From a phage, in NCBI GenBank assembly GCA_022897995.1, contig GCA_022897995.1_4763.1: a stretch of DNA of 64,000 bases. One strand, written 5' to 3'. This document shows, piece by piece, positions 34,428 to 40,696 of the stretch (the stretch's first letter is position 1; each line of letters begins with the position of its first letter). Made by a program: the position numbers and the translations under genes. The notes beneath the pieces were generated by a model that worked only from the letters and a program-made list of their open reading frames with translations, was not told where the DNA came from and ran no database searches.

Positions 34428-34463
34428 AGTCTAGTAAATTAATCAAAAGAAGGAATAGTGAAT

Positions 34464-35405
34464 ATGTTTAAACGCCAAGATTCTTCCAAACTGCAAGCTC
34501 AACTGGCCGCACTGAAAGGTGGCAACGGTTTCTCCAAAGAAGATCCGAAAGAGTGGAAGATTAAGACTGATGCAGCAGGTAACGGTGAAGCCCTGATTCG
34601 CTTCCTGCCGTCTAAGACAGAAGACGGTCTGCCGATTGTGAAACTGGTAAACCATTCCTTCAAAGTTAATGGAAAATGGTATTGGGAAAACTGCTCCAGC
34701 ACCCACGGTGATTTTGATTCTTGCCCTGTGTGCAAATATATTAACGAAAAAGACCTGTACAATACCGATAAAACAGAATGGCAACTGATTAAGCGTAAAG
34801 CGTCTTACTACGCAAACATTCTGGTACTGAAAGATCCTCAAGCACCAGAAAATGAAGGTAAGGTATTCAAATTCCGCTTCGGTCAGAAAATTTATGATAA
34901 GATCGTTGCGATGGTGAACGTGAATACCGACATGGGCGAAGTTCCGGTAGATGTAACTTGTGTGTTCTCTGGCGCTAACTTCCTCCTGAAAGCTAAGAAG
35001 GTTGATAAACACCAGAACTATGATGATTCTCGTTTCATGCAGCAATCACAGCTTCCGAAAATTGAAGACGAAGCATATCAGAAATATCTGATGGAAAACA
35101 TGGTTGATCTGGGTGAAATTGTAGCACCGAGCCAGTTTAAACCGTTTGATGAACTGGAAACCAAATTTAAGAAAACTATGGGCGTGTCTATGGTAGCGGG
35201 TGCTGCGGCTTCCAGTGCTGCGGCAGCGATTAACAGCCAGCTTGACGATTTTGATGCTCAGATGAATGCATTCGATGCTGGTATTACCGCAGCTAGCACG
35301 GCGGCAGATTCTTCCGCTGATGACCTGATGGCATCGCTGGATCTGGGTGGCGGTACTTCCTCCGCTTCTGATCTGGATGACCTGGATTCTCTGTTAGCGA
35401 TGTAA
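34464..35405 (+). CDS. 32: Single-stranded DNA-binding protein gp32
   Basis: 313 aa from ATG 34464; MFKRQ..., LIRFLPSK, zinc ligands in [13 protein letters not shown], acidic Ser/Asp-rich C-terminus; matches T4 gp32. Confidence 0.9.
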
Positions 35406-35416
35406 TGAATTTTACA

Positions 35417-35443
35417 GCCTCCCTTCGGGGAGGCTTTTTTATT
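35417..35443 (+). terminator. Rho-independent terminator after gene 32
   Basis: GCCTCCC-ttcg-GGGAGGC followed by TTTTTTATT. Confidence 0.65.
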
Positions 35444-35467
35444 GCCTAAAAATTTATGAAAAAGGTG

Positions 35468-35495
35468 TTGACATGTTGGCGAGGTAATGTATAAT
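35468..35495 (+). promoter_or_regulatory. Promoter (TTGACA, extended -10 TGTATAAT)
   Basis: TTGACA 35468-35473, 16 nt spacer, TATAAT 35490-35495. Confidence 0.5.
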
Positions 35496-35524
35496 GAACT
35501 AATCGAAACAACGGAGGATTAACA

Positions 35525-35854
35525 ATGTTTTTGAATGCTACCCTTTCCCAGAAAAGTGATAAAATCGAACTTCTGTATGTCATTGCTGATGTAGACGTAC
35601 AACGAAGAAATATAGATTTAAAAATTCACAAATATTATACTATGAGCGAATATCACGAAATCGAGATCCCACATAGTGTGTATCCCGCATTATTGTTAGG
35701 AAAAGGAAATCTAAGTGAATATTCTTTGAAAGTCATCAAAGATTCTAAATCAATGCTTGCTCATATGGAAAAAGATTTTCTTGATGAAGTTTCCGCGCTA
35801 GTTATTAAACTGAAAGAAGAAACAGCACCGCTTTTCATGGAACAAAAAGGTTGA
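35525..35854 (+). CDS. Hypothetical protein
   Basis: 109 aa ORF with RBS GGAGGA. Confidence 0.35.
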   Translation: MFLNATLSQKSDKIELLYVIADVDVQRRNIDLKIHKYYTMSEYHEIEIPHSVYPALLLGKGNLSEYSLKVIKDSKSMLAHMEKDFLDEVSALVIKLKEETAPLFMEQKG

Positions 35855-35878
35855 CTCCGAACACAGATGATGTATAAT
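35851..35878 (+). promoter_or_regulatory. Promoter (TTGACT, extended -10 TGTATAAT)
   Basis: TTGACT 35851-35856, 16 nt spacer, TATAAT 35873-35878. Confidence 0.5.
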
Positions 35879-35909
35879 ACAAACATCAAAACAAAGAGAG
35901 GATTATATT

Positions 35910-36239
35910 ATGTGGACAGTAGAACAAATCGTAGATGAAACAGTAAGTATTATCGCATGTGGCACTATTGAAGAATGCCTTAAAGCCGCTAACCGTGAAT
36001 GTATTACGGTTTATGAAGCCCGTCGCGGTGATGGTACTGTGTTAACAAGCGACTATCGATATGAACCAAAAATGATTACCTTTCGTTTTTGGGAAAATGG
36101 TGTTAATGTTGGGGTATCTCACTTAAAACGTTTTCGTGATTATTCTGACCGTTATTTCATCACACCGGATAACGGTCAAGAATTTAAGACAGCAATCACC
36201 GAAGAAAATGTAAACGAAAACTTCTTTAAACTGATTTGA
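35910..36239 (+). CDS. Hypothetical protein
   Basis: 109 aa ORF with GAGAGGAttatattATG context. Confidence 0.35.
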   Translation: MWTVEQIVDETVSIIACGTIEECLKAANRECITVYEARRGDGTVLTSDYRYEPKMITFRFWENGVNVGVSHLKRFRDYSDRYFITPDNGQEFKTAITEENVNENFFKLI

Positions 36240-36253
36240 CAGGAGATTATATT

Positions 36254-36823
36254 ATGATTCAATGTGTATTTGCGATTGGTGACACTAAAATGTCAGATGA
36301 AAATTGGGCGTTTGGTTTTAAAGGCGGTTTACCGTGGGGTCGTCCAATCAAAAAGGATATGGAAAACTTTAAAATCCGCACTATTGGCGAGGTTGATTTT
36401 GCTGCGGTAGTAATGGGACGTAATACCTTTGAAAGTCTGCCTAAAGCACTTTGGGGACGTTTGAATGTGGTTGTTAGCACCGATACCAGCAAGCCAGAAC
36501 CGAAAGCTAAAAACGGCGACCAACCTGATGTGTATACTGGAATTGAATTGAAGGATCTGTTAAAAGCCCTAGAGAAAACGCAAGGTTTGGTAAGTGTTAT
36601 CGGTGGACCTTCCCTGATTGAAAACGCAGTTGACTTTGCGGACCGTATTGTGTTAACGTATGTTCAACGTTCAGGGATCAACGATCCATTTGAATATGAT
36701 GTTGGTATCTCTAAGGAAATGATTCATGAATTATATTTTGACTTTGCAACAAAAGAAGAACATAATTACTTCCTTGATAATTACCTGATCAGCGAACAAA
36801 TTTTAGAACGTAAGAAGGTGTAA
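36254..36823 (+). CDS. frd: Dihydrofolate reductase (frd)
   Basis: 189 aa from ATG 36254; DHFR-like pattern (FAIGD, GLPWG, VVMGRNTFESLP, VIGGPSL); position before td as in T4. Confidence 0.8.
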   Translation: MIQCVFAIGDTKMSDENWAFGFKGGLPWGRPIKKDMENFKIRTIGEVDFAAVVMGRNTFESLPKALWGRLNVVVSTDTSKPEPKAKNGDQPDVYTGIELKDLLKALEKTQGLVSVIGGPSLIENAVDFADRIVLTYVQRSGINDPFEYDVGISKEMIHELYFDFATKEEHNYFLDNYLISEQILERKKV

Positions 36824-36824
36824 C

Positions 36825-36917
36825 ATGAAAATTCTGACAGATTATGAGTGCAAACATTGTGGTGGATCTTTGATGTTTGCTGGTAGTCGGTGTTTACACT
36901 GCGGACGGGAACAATAA
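36825..36917 (+). CDS. Tiny zinc-ribbon peptide (30 aa)
   Basis: CKHCGG...RCLHCG; ATG 2 nt after frd stop and TAATG overlap with next ORF. Confidence 0.25.
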   Translation: MKILTDYECKHCGGSLMFAGSRCLHCGREQ

Positions 36918-37180
36918 TGAAAATCAGTATTATTCGATTATGGTCGGCAACCAATGAAAACTACGCAGTAGCAGAAGATTTTTACGGGTTGCAATATCTC
37001 TATGATGAATCGAAAGCGTCATGGTTTCCTGTACAAGAAAATAGCGATATATCAAGACCTGTTACTGTATTCGGTCCAGACGATATTTTTATTAACATTA
37101 GCGAGACAGTAGCAAAACTGCGTAAGAAAGCAAAGAAAAAGGGGAAGTGGGATGAAAGAATATTTGAAACTGTTGCGTGA
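36917..37180 (+). CDS. Hypothetical protein
   Basis: 87 aa from ATG 36917; overlaps td start. Confidence 0.35.
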   Translation: MKISIIRLWSATNENYAVAEDFYGLQYLYDESKASWFPVQENSDISRPVTVFGPDDIFINISETVAKLRKKAKKKGKWDERIFETVA

Positions 37181-38384
37181 TGTTCTTGATAATGGCTGGC
37201 CTCGTGAAGACCGCACGGGGGTAGGTACGCTCTCTAAATTCGGCGCAGAGATGCGAATTGATTTAAGCAAGGGTTTCCCATTACTGACCACTAAAAAGAT
37301 GGCTACAGCCTCTGTAATTGGCGAATTGCTATGGTTTATGGAGGGATCACTTGACCGCCGTCGCTTACAGGAAATTACACGCGGTCAGTTTGACGAAGAA
37401 GCCTTCGACATTTGGCGTGGCAACTGTCTTGATATGAAAGAAAAGAATCCTTTGCGATTCAATGGTTATAATGTCGGCAATATGTATGGTATGGCGTGGC
37501 GACGCAAACCGATTCATCCACACGGTGAAATCAAAATTAAGCGCGTTAAGAGCAAATATACACATACATTTAAGCACCCGTGGGTAGAAGACTTTACGCC
37601 AACCAATGAAACAGAAGACCGTTTATGTGCTATCTGGCGTGGTATGCGTTATGAAGAGTTTGATTCTGAATATAATCTATTCTTAATAGCAGACCACTGG
37701 AAGACTCAATCTAATTTTGTTAATGATGCATATTGCTTGTGGGGATTCCAGGAATGGGTAGATGATGGTTATTTCGGTTATCTGCTTGATAGTGATTATC
37801 TGGGAGGGGATATTTTAGCGCCAGATACCACGATCTTTGCTAGTATGGACGTAGACACATCGAGCACTAAAGACGATGAAGAATATGTCTATCGCCCGAA
37901 GATTTGGGAAGACCAGTTACAAAACGTGATTGAACAAATTAAAAACAATCCAACGGATCGACGTATCATCATTGACTCATGGAACGTACAAGGAACACAT
38001 AATGCTGTATTGGGTGTATGTCATCCGTTCGTACAATTCTATGTCAATGAAGGTAAACTGTCTTGTATGTGGTTTCAGCGAAGCGTAGACAGCTTTTTGG
38101 GCTTGCCCTTTAACGTCGCCAGCTATGCGCTGTTAACTCACATCATAGCGAAAATGTGTGATCTTGAGGTAGGGGAACTGATTTTCTCTGGTGGAGATAC
38201 TCACATTTACAAAAACCATTTTGATCAAGTTATGGAACAGTTAAGCCGTGTTCCTTTTGATAAACCAACAATTGAGTTGCCGGAATTTAAATCTTTAGAT
38301 GAGGTATTGACAAAGACTCCGAAAGACTTTAAAATTCACAACTATCAAAGCCATCCAGCAATCACCGCTCAAATGGCAGTATAA
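37152..38384 (+). CDS. td: Thymidylate synthase (td) with large in-frame insertion
   Basis: 410 aa; N-terminal (DRTGVGT, FPLLTTKK) and C-terminal (DRRIIIDSWN, CHPFVQFYV, QRSVDSFLGLPFNVASYALLTHI, SGGDTHIY) ThyA blocks; about 130 aa between WRRK and IWEDQL has no ThyA counterpart. Confidence 0.85.
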   Translation: MKEYLKLLRDVLDNGWPREDRTGVGTLSKFGAEMRIDLSKGFPLLTTKKMATASVIGELLWFMEGSLDRRRLQEITRGQFDEEAFDIWRGNCLDMKEKNPLRFNGYNVGNMYGMAWRRKPIHPHGEIKIKRVKSKYTHTFKHPWVEDFTPTNETEDRLCAIWRGMRYEEFDSEYNLFLIADHWKTQSNFVNDAYCLWGFQEWVDDGYFGYLLDSDYLGGDILAPDTTIFASMDVDTSSTKDDEEYVYRPKIWEDQLQNVIEQIKNNPTDRRIIIDSWNVQGTHNAVLGVCHPFVQFYVNEGKLSCMWFQRSVDSFLGLPFNVASYALLTHIIAKMCDLEVGELIFSGGDTHIYKNHFDQVMEQLSRVPFDKPTIELPEFKSLDEVLTKTPKDFKIHNYQSHPAITAQMAV

Positions 38385-38452
38385 ACAAAGGGGGCGAAAG
38401 CCCCCAATATGGAGGATAAACTTGTTCCTGCTAAAATATGAAGTGAGGTAAT

Positions 38453-40696
38453 ATGATTAAAAATGTTGTTAAGTCTTCCGGTCTGACTGTTCCGTTTGAA
38501 AAAGAAAAAGTAATGAAAATTCTGGAAGCGGCAGCCGAAGGTCATAACGTTGATCCATATGAATTGTTTGATATGGTTGAACCACTTCTGACAGAAGGTA
38601 TGTCTACCAATGATATCCAGAAAGTATTGATTAAGGTCGCCGCAGATAACATTACTGTAGAAACACCTGATTATCAATATGTAGCAAGTAACCTTGCAAT
38701 GTTCGCGCTTCGTAAATCAGTATACGGTCAATTCCAACCTATTGATTTTTATAGCCATATTGAGCGTAATATTGCAACCGGAAAATATGATCGCGAAATT
38801 CTGCAAAAGTATTCCCGCGAAGAAGTGGAATATCTGGAGAAATTCATCGACCATAAACTTGATTTTAAAATGACCTATGCTGGTGCGATGCAGTTAAAAG
38901 AGAAATATCTTGTTCAGGATCGCAGCACTAAGAAAATCATTGAAACACCGCAATTTGCGTATATGCTGATCGGTATGTGCTTGCATCAAGAAGAGACAGA
39001 AAATCGACTTGAACATGTGATTGATTTTTATAATGCTGTTGCGAATAAGCAAATCTCTCTTCCTACTCCGATTATGGCGGGTGTGCGTACTCCAACACGA
39101 CAATTTAGTTCGTGTGTGGTGATTGAAAGTGATGACTCATTGCAGGGTATTAATGAAACCGCAAATGCAATCATCAAGTATATTAGCAAGCGTGCTGGTA
39201 TCGGTATCAACGCTGGCATGATTCGCGCGGAAGGATCTAAGATCGGGCATGGTGAAGTTCGTCATACTGGTGTTATCCCATTCTGGAAGCATTTTCAGAC
39301 TGCCGTTAAGTCATGCTCACAAGGCGGTATTCGTGGCGGGGCAGCGACTCTCTATTACCCAATGTGGCATTTAGAATTTGAAAGTCTTATTGTGTTGAAG
39401 AATAACAAAGGGGTAGAAGACAACCGCATTCGCCATCTTGATTACGGCGTACAGATTAATAACCTGATGGTAGAGCGATTCCTTAAACGGGATTACATTA
39501 CTCTGTTTAGTCCAGATGTTGCGGGTGGCTTGTTGTGGGATCTGTACTTCCGAGATGAGGAAGGTTTCCGCCAGCTTTACGAAAAACTGGAAAAAGATCC
39601 GAGTGTTCGTAAAACTCGTGTTAAAGCCGAAGACCTATTTTTAGCGGTGGCAATTGAACGTTTTAACACTGGTCGAATCTATCCGGCGTTCACAGACAAC
39701 ATGAACAATCACGGGGCGTTTATTCGCAATGTAGCACCGATTAAACAATCTAACCTGTGTTGTGAAATTGCACTTCCTACTAAACCGATGGGTCGTGATG
39801 ATTCAGAGATCAGCCTATGTACTTTGGCAGCATATGTTTTAGGTAATTTCGATATCGAAAATATGGAAGAAGTAGAACGCATTGCTATGGTTATGGTGCG
39901 TGCACTTGACAACCTGTTAGATTATCAGGATTATCCTGTAGAACAAGCTCTGACAGCCAAAAAACGTCGCTCTCTGGGTGTTGGTGTGACTAACTTTGCA
40001 TCATATCTGGCGGATAATTTCTTCACATATGAAGACGCTAACGAGTTTACGCATAAAACGTTTGAACGCTTGCAATATGCTCTGATTAAGGCTAGTGTGC
40101 AACTGGCTAAAGAGAAGGGTGCTTGCGAACTGATGCACGAAACACGTTATGGACGCGGTGAACTGCCTATCGACTGGTACAAAAAGACAGTAGATGAACT
40201 GGTTGATCCGGTGTATGAGATGGATTGGGAAGAACTGCGCGAAGACCTGAAAAAATATGGCATTCGTAACAGTACGCTTTCGGCGCTGATGCCTTGTGAG
40301 TCGTCTTCTCAGGTGTCTAACAGCACAAACGGTATTGAACCGCCTCGCGGGATTGTATCGGTTAAAGGATCGAAAGAAGGGCAATTTAATCAGGTTATTC
40401 CGAACGTAGAGAATAATGCTGATGTTATTGACTTGCTTTGGACACTGATCAAGAAAGGTAACAAGCCTTATCTGACACTGGCAGCGATCATGCAGAAGTT
40501 TGTCGATCAGGCGATTAGTTCCAATACATCCTACGATCCAAGCACTTATAAGACTGGTAAAGTCGATATTGCTGATGTATTAGATGATATGTTGTTTGCT
40601 CAATATTACGGCCTCAAGACACTGTATTACGCTAACGTGCGTGATGGTGCTGATGGTACGGAAGACGCTAGCGAATGTTCATCTTGCAAACTGTAA
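38453..40696 (+). CDS. nrdA: Ribonucleotide reductase large subunit NrdA
   Basis: 747 aa; ATP-cone N-terminus, class I RNR blocks (PDYQYVASNLAMFALRK, SNLCCEI, C-terminal CxxC); no intron. Confidence 0.9.
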   Translation: MIKNVVKSSGLTVPFEKEKVMKILEAAAEGHNVDPYELFDMVEPLLTEGMSTNDIQKVLIKVAADNITVETPDYQYVASNLAMFALRKSVYGQFQPIDFYSHIERNIATGKYDREILQKYSREEVEYLEKFIDHKLDFKMTYAGAMQLKEKYLVQDRSTKKIIETPQFAYMLIGMCLHQEETENRLEHVIDFYNAVANKQISLPTPIMAGVRTPTRQFSSCVVIESDDSLQGINETANAIIKYISKRAGIGINAGMIRAEGSKIGHGEVRHTGVIPFWKHFQTAVKSCSQGGIRGGAATLYYPMWHLEFESLIVLKNNKGVEDNRIRHLDYGVQINNLMVERFLKRDYITLFSPDVAGGLLWDLYFRDEEGFRQLYEKLEKDPSVRKTRVKAEDLFLAVAIERFNTGRIYPAFTDNMNNHGAFIRNVAPIKQSNLCCEIALPTKPMGRDDSEISLCTLAAYVLGNFDIENMEEVERIAMVMVRALDNLLDYQDYPVEQALTAKKRRSLGVGVTNFASYLADNFFTYEDANEFTHKTFERLQYALIKASVQLAKEKGACELMHETRYGRGELPIDWYKKTVDELVDPVYEMDWEELREDLKKYGIRNSTLSALMPCESSSQVSNSTNGIEPPRGIVSVKGSKEGQFNQVIPNVENNADVIDLLWTLIKKGNKPYLTLAAIMQKFVDQAISSNTSYDPSTYKTGKVDIADVLDDMLFAQYYGLKTLYYANVRDGADGTEDASECSSCKL

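What the first reader, a model, noticed from the sequence alone, without database searches (positions are those of the whole stretch)
37506..37901. Thymidylate synthase carries an in-frame insertion of about 130 aa
Td (37152-38384, 410 aa) aligns with ThyA/T4 Td at both ends, but residues about 119-250 (PIHPHGEIKIKRVKSKYTHTF...DDEEYVYRPK) lie between the WR and DRR blocks with no counterpart in the T4 or E. coli enzymes as recalled. It is not a group I intron (continuous ORF) and lacks intein boundary motifs. The site corresponds to the variable small-domain position of ThyA but the insert is far larger than the roughly 50 aa insert known in Lactobacillus casei TS; it may be an extra domain.
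Basis: partly seen in the sequence, partly recalled or inferred. Interest (0 to 1): 0.6.

Follow-up and report, generated by a model that had tools for sequence, protein, structure and literature searches.

The report
Dead endonuclease domain nested inside thymidylate synthase
The phage's thymidylate synthase really does carry an extra folded domain of about 130 amino acids, and it is the decayed, unspliced remnant of a homing-endonuclease-like element that inserted in frame into a surface hairpin of the enzyme; intact and apparently still mobile versions sit at the same spot in many other phage thymidylate synthases.

Summary
The td ORF (37152-38384, 410 aa) is an intact ThyA-type thymidylate synthase (TS). 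Residues about 121-251 replace a five-residue hairpin loop of the E. coli enzyme. The window is an RB49-like Krischvirus, and all 59 relatives found carry the insert.

It is not an intron: there is no Rfam hit, the frame is conserved and an indel is codon-sized. It is not an intein: there is no Hint domain and the junction residues do not fit. It is also not at the L. casei insert site, which lies upstream of the GDLGxVYGxQWR block, whereas this insert lies downstream.

AlphaFold2 predicts a confident extra lobe on a two-strand stalk (pLDDT 92.8, pTM 0.91). The insert is homologous to a very large phage protein family with no Pfam model and no solved structure. PHROGs label the family "HNH endonuclease", and its best fold match is PacI, though weakly.

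Dozens of other phage TS clusters carry 190-280 aa versions at the same site, with extra DNA-binding-like modules. These larger versions show presence/absence polymorphism and cassette exchange, which suggests mobility.

The window's copy has lost those modules and most conserved polar residues of the family, and it is acidic. Its dN/dS is about 0.15-0.3. I read it as an immobilised, catalytically dead relic kept as a folded passenger domain. A newly acquired function is not excluded.

The parts
37152..38384 (+). td gene, a ThyA-type thymidylate synthase of 410 aa plus stop codon
37152..37511 (+). N-terminal part of the TS fold (residues 1-120), including R21, E58, W88, Y112 and W116-R117
   Evidence: Aligns to E. 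coli ThyA 1-102. These residues are invariant columns.
37512..37904 (+). The in-frame insert (residues 121-251), a degenerate core of a PacI-like endonuclease family domain
   Evidence: No counterpart in E. coli, L. casei or T4 TS. A profile built only from 38 free-standing family members hits it at 32 bits, E=3.6e-12. tblastn E=1e-17 to the insert in Vibrio phage D69 TS.
37503..37541 (+). Stalk strand 1 (residues 118-130), which extends the TS hairpin strand
   Evidence: Strand E118-130 in the AlphaFold2 model.
37608..37661 (+). Long helix (residues 153-170) carrying the family-conserved W162 and M165. The conserved R-C-Y of the family is replaced here by E168-E169-F170.
   Evidence: for secondary structure; for the table of conserved positions.
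37665..37676 (+). Four-codon indel-polymorphic loop (S172-E173-Y174-N175), the lowest-confidence part of the insert
   Evidence: Absent in JSE, JK32, Phi1 and G2494. pLDDT is 74 for residues 171-180. It corresponds to the shortened 'RCYnPrxNHxsY' loop of full-length inserts.
37692..37763 (+). Helical core (residues 181-204) with W183, F189 and D192 and the motif LWGFQEWVD. This is the best-conserved part of the insert.
   Evidence: Helices H181-193 and H199-204. W, F and D are invariant across TS inserts and free-standing proteins.
37779..37844 (+). Degenerate beta-hairpin (residues 210-231) at the position of the family's beta-beta-alpha motif. D-K-D has become D213-S214-D215, the conserved Y-S has become L222-A223, and T-C has become T226-T227. 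The following helix with the conserved Asn is missing (D235 sits at that alignment position).
   Evidence: Strands E210-213 and E228-231 with no helix after them. The P0012 insert has E161-163, E178-180 and H182-189. Residue table.
37884..37913 (+). Stalk strand 2 (residues 245-254, EYVYRPKIWED), which returns the chain to the TS fold
   Evidence: Strand E245-254. The motif YRPKI(W/Y) is conserved in insert-bearing TS.
37905..38381 (+). C-terminal part of the TS fold (residues 252-410), with R270-R271, catalytic C290-H291 (C290 at 38019-38021), R310-S311, D313, N321, H351 and Y353
   Evidence: Aligns to E. coli 108-264. These residues are invariant columns.

Best explanation
The insert is the reduced, immobilised and catalytically dead remnant of a homing-endonuclease-like element that entered td in frame. 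It sits in the surface beta-hairpin that follows the WR motif (E. coli P102-H108). It is neither spliced out of the RNA nor out of the protein. Td is made as one 410-aa chain in which two long antiparallel strands form a stalk carrying a compact helical lobe, while the ThyA catalytic core stays intact and presumably active. The ancestral element had three parts: a small beta-barrel module, a PacI-like beta-beta-alpha core and a NUMOD-like C-terminal module. The window's copy keeps only the hydrophobic skeleton of the core. It has lost both flanking modules and most conserved polar residues of the family, including the Tyr that would play the PacI-type catalytic role, and it has become acidic. 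It most likely no longer binds or cuts DNA. I infer that it persists because it is a stably folded domain welded into an important enzyme: precise removal is improbable and partial deletions would misfold Td, so selection keeps it foldable. Shown here: the homology, the site, the loss of motifs, the confidently predicted fold, purifying selection and the absence of intron or intein signatures. Inferred: the endonuclease activity of the intact relatives, the homing origin, and the absence of a new function in the window's copy.
For: Homology. The window's insert is homologous to inserts of 190-280 aa at the same TS site. A profile of TS inserts finds 13,319 cluster representatives at E<=1e-3, and 4,621 at E<=1e-10. 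Many are free-standing proteins of 170-300 aa, and some carry I-HmuI NUMOD-like or AP2 modules. A profile built from free-standing members alone hits the window's insert at E=3.6e-12. The full-length insert of P0012 and the free-standing members match PHROG 2081/953/374 'HNH endonuclease'.

Decay in the window. K becomes S214, Y becomes L222, S becomes A223, C becomes T227 and N becomes D235. The R-C-Y triplet becomes E-E-F, the GVGYxG segment is absent, and the helix after the hairpin is missing. The net charge is -11 and pI 4.7, against pI 8.3-9.6 for most full-length inserts.

Translated and folded. The frame is continuous in all 59 Krischvirus relatives. A 12-nt indel preserves the frame, and dN/dS is about 0.15-0.3 in the insert against 0.01-0.04 in the TS core. 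The AlphaFold2 model has pLDDT 92.8 and pTM 0.91.

Not spliced. There is no Rfam hit, no Hint domain, and no alternative-frame ORF lying within the insert.

Old and vertically inherited. The reduced form also occurs in a syntenic 169-kb T4-like contig (gp32...frd-td-nrdA-nrdB) whose TS core is 62% identical. In this clade the insert diverges faster than the core, for example 0.39-0.49 against 0.62-0.67 identity.

Confidence: 0.65

Rival explanations
1. Exapted domain. The endonuclease-derived lobe has lost DNA cleavage but gained a new role for the phage. Candidates are a docking surface for partner enzymes of deoxynucleotide synthesis (DHFR, ribonucleotide reductase, gp32) or a modulator of cofactor access or Td stability.
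For: dN/dS is about 0.15-0.3, not neutral. The insert is retained in all 59 Krischvirus relatives and in a related T4-like lineage with 62% TS-core identity. The Asteriusvirus-like lineage P0009/P0013 was independently reduced to a similar minimal core. The TS-insert-specific motif LWGFQEWVD is strongly conserved. The pTM of 0.91 implies a defined orientation on the TS body. The change to an acidic surface could reflect a new binding partner.
Against: The insert evolves about ten times less constrained than the TS core and faster than the core at depth. It tolerates indels and substitutions in the Krischvirus set. No new conserved polar motif specific to the reduced forms was seen. The need to keep an embedded domain foldable explains the same data.
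Confidence: 0.25
2. Still-active selfish element. The insert is a working minimal endonuclease that cuts insert-less td alleles of co-infecting phages and so drives its own inheritance, or excludes competitors.
For: Full-length relatives show the hallmarks of mobility. There is presence/absence at 90% flank identity. There is cassette exchange within Asteriusvirus. The insert is as conserved as, or more conserved than, the host TS across diverged genes.
Against: The window's copy lacks both putative DNA-binding modules, the conserved Tyr-Ser, Lys, Cys and Asn, and the helix of the beta-beta-alpha unit. It is acidic. No insert-less Krischvirus td was found to serve as a target. In this clade the insert diverges faster than the core, as expected for vertical descent.
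Confidence: 0.03
3. Self-splicing element. The segment is a group I intron read through in frame, or an intein, and is removed before the mature enzyme forms.
For: T4 td is famous for a group I intron, and nucleotide-metabolism genes of phages often carry inteins. The size, about 130 aa, is that of a mini-intein.
Against: There is no Rfam family at E<=1 on either strand in 36800-38700. There is protein-level purifying selection and a codon-sized indel. There is no Hint or intein Pfam hit in this or the larger inserts. The junctions read WRRKP|IHPH and YRPKI|WEDQ, with no Cys/Ser start and no His-Asn plus Cys/Ser/Thr end. The predicted structure continues the TS hairpin as a stalk.
Confidence: 0.02
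4. Ordinary ThyA variability. The segment is just an expanded version of the known variable small-domain insert, as in L. casei, with no separate origin.
For: ThyA tolerates insertions in this general surface region. Short inserts of 20-40 aa occur at the same hairpin in other TS (P0027, P0036, P0097).
Against: The loop differs from the L. casei insert site. The segment is homologous to thousands of free-standing non-TS proteins. It forms an autonomous fold.
Confidence: 0.01

Closest known systems
ShiLan domain of actinobacteriophage DNA methylases (Arsenault, Gosselin and Gogarten 2025, PMC11855218)
   Same: It is a homing-type insertion inside a conserved phage enzyme gene. It can be read through in frame without stop codons, has no intron or intein features, and is predicted to stand away from the host fold.
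   Different: In ShiLan the HNH endonuclease is encoded in a different reading frame, and the in-frame translation is a poorly structured loop. Here the endonuclease-like domain is itself the in-frame translation and is confidently folded. The host gene is td, and the endonuclease family is different.
PacI and His-Me finger group 20 (Shen et al. 2010; Jablonska et al. 2017, PMC5714182)
   Different: The match is weak and there is no detectable sequence similarity. The zinc sites of PacI were not established here. The window's copy lacks the Tyr, the Asn and the helix.
PHROG 2081/953/374, phage proteins labelled 'HNH endonuclease'
   Same: The full-length TS insert (P0012 residues 139-315) and the free-standing relatives match these families at E=1e-19 to 1e-54. 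Modules typical of homing endonucleases (I-HmuI NUMOD-like, AP2) accompany the domain.
   Different: The window's insert alone does not reach these PHROG models at E<=1; only custom profiles link it. The family name is an annotation, not a tested activity, and there is no Pfam model or solved structure.
T4 td group I intron with I-TevI
   Same: The same gene in a related phage family is the home of a homing endonuclease element.
   Different: The T4 element is an RNA-spliced intron with a GIY-YIG enzyme at another site (established knowledge). Here there is no intron and the element is part of the protein.
Inteins with nested HNH or LAGLIDADG endonucleases
   Same: They are in-frame insertions in conserved nucleotide-metabolism enzymes that carry an endonuclease domain.
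   Different: There is no Hint splicing domain and no splice-junction residues, so the insert stays in the mature protein.
L. casei ThyA 50-residue small-domain insert and the eukaryotic TS loop insert
   Same: They are surface insertions tolerated by the ThyA fold.
   Different: The L. casei insert lies upstream of the GDLGxVYGxQWR block, whereas this one lies downstream. This one is 2.6 times larger and has free-standing homologues.

Membership tests
ThyA-type thymidylate synthase (PF00303 / TIGR03284) | Profile match above the curated cutoff | tested here: met
   PF00303 scores 284 bits against a cutoff of 24.3. TIGR03284 scores 283 bits against a cutoff of 108.
ThyA-type thymidylate synthase (PF00303 / TIGR03284) | Catalytic Cys-His, the dUMP phosphate-binding arginines, Asn177 (dUMP rather than dCMP specificity), and the Tyr and His of the active site | tested here: met
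   C290-H291, R21, R270-R271, R310-S311, D313, N321, H351 and Y353 are invariant alignment columns.
ThyA-type thymidylate synthase (PF00303 / TIGR03284) | TS fold | tested here: met
ThyA-type thymidylate synthase (PF00303 / TIGR03284) | dUMP to dTMP activity with the insert present | not testable with these tools
   This needs an enzyme assay.
Group I intron | Conserved ribozyme secondary structure | tested here: not met
   No Rfam family at E<=1 in 36800-38700, either strand.
Intein | Hint splicing domain and junction residues (Cys/Ser at the N end, His-Asn followed by Cys/Ser/Thr at the C end) | tested here: not met
   There is no intein or Hint Pfam hit. The junctions are KP|IHPH and RPKI|WEDQ.
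PHROG 2081-type phage endonuclease-like family (no Pfam model) | Significant profile similarity to free-standing members | tested here: met
   A profile of 38 free-standing proteins hits the window's insert at 32.2 bits, E=3.6e-12 for a single-sequence search. The PHROG models themselves do not reach it, although they hit the larger TS inserts.
PHROG 2081-type phage endonuclease-like family (no Pfam model) | Family-conserved positions: GVGYxG, W, M, R-C-Y, W, F, D, D-K-D, Y-S, T-C, F and N | tested here: not met
   The window keeps W162, M165, W183, F189, D192, D213, D215, T226 and F229. It has E168-E169-F170 in place of R-C-Y, S214 for K, L222-A223 for Y-S, T227 for C and D235 for N, and it lacks GVGYxG. 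It is a degenerate derivative, not a typical member.
His-Me finger (HNH, beta-beta-alpha-metal) endonucleases | Beta-beta-alpha fold | tested here: inconclusive
His-Me finger (HNH, beta-beta-alpha-metal) endonucleases | General base (a His, or a loop Tyr as in PacI) plus a metal-binding Asn/His in the helix | tested here: not met
   This applies to the window's insert: L222 sits at the Tyr position and D235 at the Asn position, with no helix. Full-length inserts and free-standing members keep Tyr and Asn but have no His.
Homing endonuclease element (mobile) | Sporadic presence/absence at one site among closely related host genes, and co-conversion of flanks | tested here: met
   This applies to the full-length relatives only. 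P0024 (552 aa) is 90% identical outside the insert to the insert-less P0100. The td genes of Asteriusvirus UE-S1 and ph0011 are 87-97% identical at both ends but 17-47% identical across the insert and about 60 flanking TS residues on each side. For the window's clade no insert-less relative was found.
Homing endonuclease element (mobile) | Site-specific cleavage of the empty allele | not testable with these tools
   This needs biochemistry or co-infection crosses.

The most novel reading that the evidence does not exclude
The td hairpin hosts a previously undescribed class of selfish element: a PacI-like (Tyr-type His-Me finger) homing endonuclease that lives as an in-frame, never-spliced protein domain inside an active thymidylate synthase. 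It spreads between phage td genes by cutting empty alleles and dragging flanking td sequence with it. The Krischvirus insert would be the end state of its life cycle. Because there is no splicing and no clean excision, the element cannot be lost, and it is instead whittled down to an entrenched, possibly co-opted structural domain. Two lineages reached this outcome independently.
Probability: 0.45. Interest if true: 0.8.

Novelty: new variant of a known kind. Interest (0 to 1): 0.6.

Why it matters
Homing endonuclease genes are thought to survive inside essential genes only when an intron or intein removes them, or when they sit between genes. Here an endonuclease-type domain is simply tolerated as part of the enzyme. 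That is a third route for selfish DNA into conserved genes, and a natural example of how a parasite sequence becomes a permanent protein domain.

The finding also flags a very large phage protein family (13,319 clusters at 50% identity matched at E<=1e-3) that has no Pfam model and no solved structure. It offers natural TS-nuclease chimeras whose target site can be guessed, namely the td hairpin codons, which makes the idea directly testable.

For annotation, it explains why RB49-like Td is 410 aa. It also explains why some TS genes are labelled 'HNH endonuclease' or 'hypothetical protein'.

Tried and rejected
- **Insert alone in the word-indexed protein search.** It returned no candidates.
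- **Insert alone against Pfam, PHROGs and NCBIfam.** Nothing was found.
- **Rfam scan for introns.** Nothing was found.
- **Profile of the family against PDB sequences.** There was no real hit.
- **Foldseek against AFDB.** The library was unavailable.
- **A free-standing family member elsewhere in the 64-kb window.** Only the td insert matched.
- **Compositional anomaly of the insert in the window.** None was seen; GC is about 0.40-0.41, like the flanks.
- **Target-site duplication at the P0024 insertion.** None was seen.
- **The same domain nested in other host enzymes.** Matches annotated 'Clp protease' and 'GTP pyrophosphokinase' look like mislabelled free-standing proteins, and the long non-TS hits show only NUMOD-like or AP2 modules.
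- **A hidden out-of-frame endonuclease ORF, as in ShiLan.** No ORF of 40 aa or more lies within the insert in another frame.
- **Literature searches.** Searches for an RB49 or phage TS insertion, or for a TS-endonuclease chimera, found no description. The library is incomplete, and the 2002 RB49 genome paper is not held.

Full report
**1.

The window is an RB49-like Krischvirus. The td region is 97-98% identical in nucleotides to RB49 and its closest relatives, and 59 phage records match at 90-99%. ORF 37152-38384 encodes 410 aa. It lies in the usual T4-like order: gp59, gp32, small ORFs, frd, td, nrdA.

**2. The site is not the L. casei site**

I checked my copy of the L. casei sequence against PDB entry 1lca, and it matched residue for residue. 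I then aligned it with the window's Td. The 50-residue L. casei insert lies upstream of the conserved GDLGxVYGxQWRxW block, whereas the window's insert lies downstream of it. Some other TS carry short inserts of 20-40 residues at the same hairpin (P0027, P0036, P0097).

**3. It is neither an intron nor an intein, and it hides no other ORF**

- No Rfam family matches at E<=1 on either strand of 36800-38700.
- The reading frame is continuous in all relatives.
- A 12-nt indel (codons 172-175) among Krischvirus phages preserves the frame.
- No intein or Hint domain is detected here or in the larger relatives.
- The junction residues are wrong for protein splicing.
- No ORF of 40 aa or more lies within the insert in another frame.
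- GC content matches the flanks.

**4. It is translated, folded and under selection**

AlphaFold2, run with 36 aligned sequences, gives mean pLDDT 92.8 and pTM 0.91. No segment falls below pLDDT 50. The insert forms a two-strand stalk (118-130 and 245-254). The stalk carries helices 153-170, 181-193 and 199-204 and a small hairpin at 210-213/228-231.

Nei-Gojobori estimates among eight Krischvirus td genes give dN/dS of mostly 0.15-0.3 for the insert. The TS core gives 0.01-0.04. The insert is therefore constrained, but roughly ten times less than the enzyme.

A reduced insert of the same type occurs in metagenomic relatives whose whole proteins are down to 51% identical to the window's Td. 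One of these sits in a 169-kb T4-like contig with the same gene order. In this clade the insert diverges faster than the core: 0.39-0.49 identity against 0.62-0.67.

**5. What the insert is related to**

A tblastn search with the insert found TS genes carrying larger inserts in three groups:
- Asteriusvirus jumbo phages (517 aa);
- Klebsiella phage phiKp_21;
- Vibrio phages, where a 477-aa TS is annotated 'HNH endonuclease'.

The protein database added about 25 TS of 401-613 aa. Aligned, the inserts are modular:
- a beta-rich N module;
- a GVGYxG turn;
- a core with the motifs Y..W..M..R(C/V)Y, W..F.NF..D, L.GF.EW, LDKD, YS..TC.F and N;
- a C module resembling NUMOD-type helix-turn-helix units.

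The window's insert has only the core, and the loop after the first helix is shortened.

A profile of the inserts was searched against 1.84 billion cluster representatives. It gave 13,319 hits at E<=1e-3 and 4,621 at E<=1e-10. Of the top 146 hits, 59 are TS, always with the insert at E. coli positions about 100-108. The rest are mostly free-standing proteins of 170-300 aa made of the N module plus the core. Some are tandem duplications, and some carry an I-HmuI NUMOD-like or AP2 domain. None has any other catalytic domain.

These proteins and the full-length TS insert match PHROG 2081/953/374 'HNH endonuclease'. One free-standing member has tblastn matches in 1,459 phage genome records. There is no Pfam model and no PDB relative by sequence. 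A profile built only from 38 free-standing members detects the window's insert at 32 bits, E=3.6e-12.

**6. The fold, and what the window's copy has lost**

The P0012 insert, modelled with 58 aligned sequences, gives pLDDT 95.1. The model contains:
- a small beta barrel;
- a helical bundle;
- a strand-loop-strand-helix unit (161-163, 178-180, 182-189);
- a C module.

PacI belongs to the His-Me finger group that lacks the catalytic His and uses a Tyr in the loop between the two strands (PMC5714182). The family here also lacks a conserved His. It has a Tyr-Ser that is 100% and 95% conserved in that loop, D-K-D at the end of strand 1, and an Asn in the helix. This makes a PacI-like nuclease plausible for the intact members. 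It is not proven.

In the window, the family positions have changed as follows.

| Family position | Window residue |
|---|---|
| Lys of D-K-D | S214 |
| Tyr-Ser in the loop | L222-A223 |
| Cys of T-C | T227 |
| Asn in the helix | D235 |
| R-C-Y | E168-E169-F170 |

The GVGYxG turn and both flanking modules are absent, and no helix follows the hairpin. Mainly the buried aromatic and aliphatic residues and some acidic positions survive: W162, M165, W183, F189, D192, W202, D213, D215, T226 and F229. The insert is acidic (net charge -11, pI 4.7), whereas most full-length inserts have pI 8.3-9.6.

**7. The intact relatives look mobile**

- **Presence/absence.** P0024 (552 aa) is 90% identical outside its 276-aa insert to an insert-less TS of 276 aa. 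The genes are 84% identical in nucleotides, and no target-site duplication is seen.
- **Cassette exchange.** Two Asteriusvirus phages, UE-S1 and ph0011, have td genes that are 87-97% identical over the first 55 or so and the last 120 or so residues. They are only 17-47% identical across the insert and about 60 TS residues on each side. This is the pattern expected from cassette exchange with co-conversion.
- **Insert as conserved as its host.** Between diverged TS, full-length inserts are as conserved as the TS core or more so. For example, the core is 0.47 identical and the insert 0.64 for P0016 against P0017.
- **Independent reduction.** P0009 and P0013 have TS cores 68-72% identical to the full-length carriers P0010, P0012 and P0014, but only 52% identical to the window's. 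They were independently trimmed to a similar minimal core.

**8. Interpretation**

The most economical reading is a homing-cycle end state. An endonuclease gene of this family entered td in frame at a tolerant hairpin and spread. In the ancestor of Krischvirus and its relatives it became fixed, lost its activity and was trimmed. There is no splicing and no clean excision route, and the remaining core is one cooperative fold attached to an important enzyme. Selection therefore now acts mainly to keep it foldable.

The main rival is that the lobe has acquired a role, such as partner docking or modulation of Td. The purifying selection, the long retention and the convergent minimal core fit that reading too. 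I could not inspect model coordinates or PAE, so the interface with the TS body is unknown.

**9. Comparison with known systems and novelty**

The closest published case I found is the ShiLan insertion in actinophage methylases. It is read through in frame and is unspliced, but its HNH is encoded out of frame and its in-frame product is poorly structured (PMC11855218). T4's own td carries a homing element of a different kind, a group I intron with I-TevI. Searches of the paper library found no description of the RB49 Td insert or of TS-endonuclease chimeras. The library is incomplete, so prior description cannot be excluded. I rate the finding a new variant of a known kind. The window's copy itself is a relic, but it points to a large, unannotated and testable phenomenon.

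Noticed in passing
window 35406-36235, compared with L001 1247-2704 (RB49): Between gene 32 (34458-35405) and the ORFs before frd, RB49 carries a 485-aa gene annotated 'endonuclease' (RB49p240). The window instead has only a 109-aa ORF (35525-35854) with no PHROG match. This is a presence/absence difference for a free-standing endonuclease gene about 2 kb upstream of td.
   Followed up: partly
L004 355-1578 (phage JSE td) against window 37152-38384: JSE td is mosaic. Its insert is Krischvirus-like, but the TS segment just downstream (about residues 257-350) is strongly diverged, with core dS about 0.47 and dN about 0.07 against 0.1-0.3 and 0.003 for the other phages. It resembles the P0003-P0005 type, which suggests recombination that starts at the 3' edge of the insert.
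   Followed up: partly
window 37152-37180: The td start codon lies 29 nt inside the upstream 96-aa ORF (36890-37180, PHROG 16012, unknown function). The same overlap is annotated in RB49. This suggests translational coupling.
   Followed up: no
window 38390-38405: A perfect GC-rich hairpin, GGGGGC-GAAA-GCCCCC, lies 6 nt after the td stop codon. The scan scores it as a terminator only on the minus strand, where the T-run lies, although all neighbouring genes are on the plus strand. Some related records annotate a terminator here.
   Followed up: no
window 38307-38335: A near-consensus sigma-70-like site (TTGACA, 17 nt, TAAAAT; 11 of 12 matches) lies inside the 3' end of td, upstream of nrdA. 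The total number of sites in the region is no higher than in shuffled sequence.
   Followed up: no
L003 2755-4308 and L015 2246-3886 (Asteriusvirus UE-S1 and ph0011 td): Two jumbo phages of one genus carry different insert variants at the same td site, together with different adjacent TS sequence, inside otherwise near-identical genes. In ph0011 the gene is annotated 'hypothetical protein'.
   Followed up: yes
L002 2737-4170 (Vibrio phage D69): A 477-aa TS with the insert is annotated 'HNH endonuclease'. Its TS part is unusually divergent, 32-42% identical to the others. Conserved motifs are substituted: DRTG becomes TRSG, RR becomes RY, and GDTHIY becomes KDAHTY. Its TS activity may therefore be altered.
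   Followed up: no
proteins P0137, P0138, P0177, P0179, P0209, P0218, P0232, P0261 and P0262: Several insert-bearing TS have a second insertion of 20-60 residues near E. coli position 155-157. In P0138 it reads like an acidic helical segment.
   Followed up: no
proteins P0125, P0131, P0132 and P0145: Free-standing members of the family occur as tandem duplications of the whole unit. One has six repeats of the roughly 55-aa N module before a single core. This suggests that the N module is a repeatable recognition unit.
   Followed up: no
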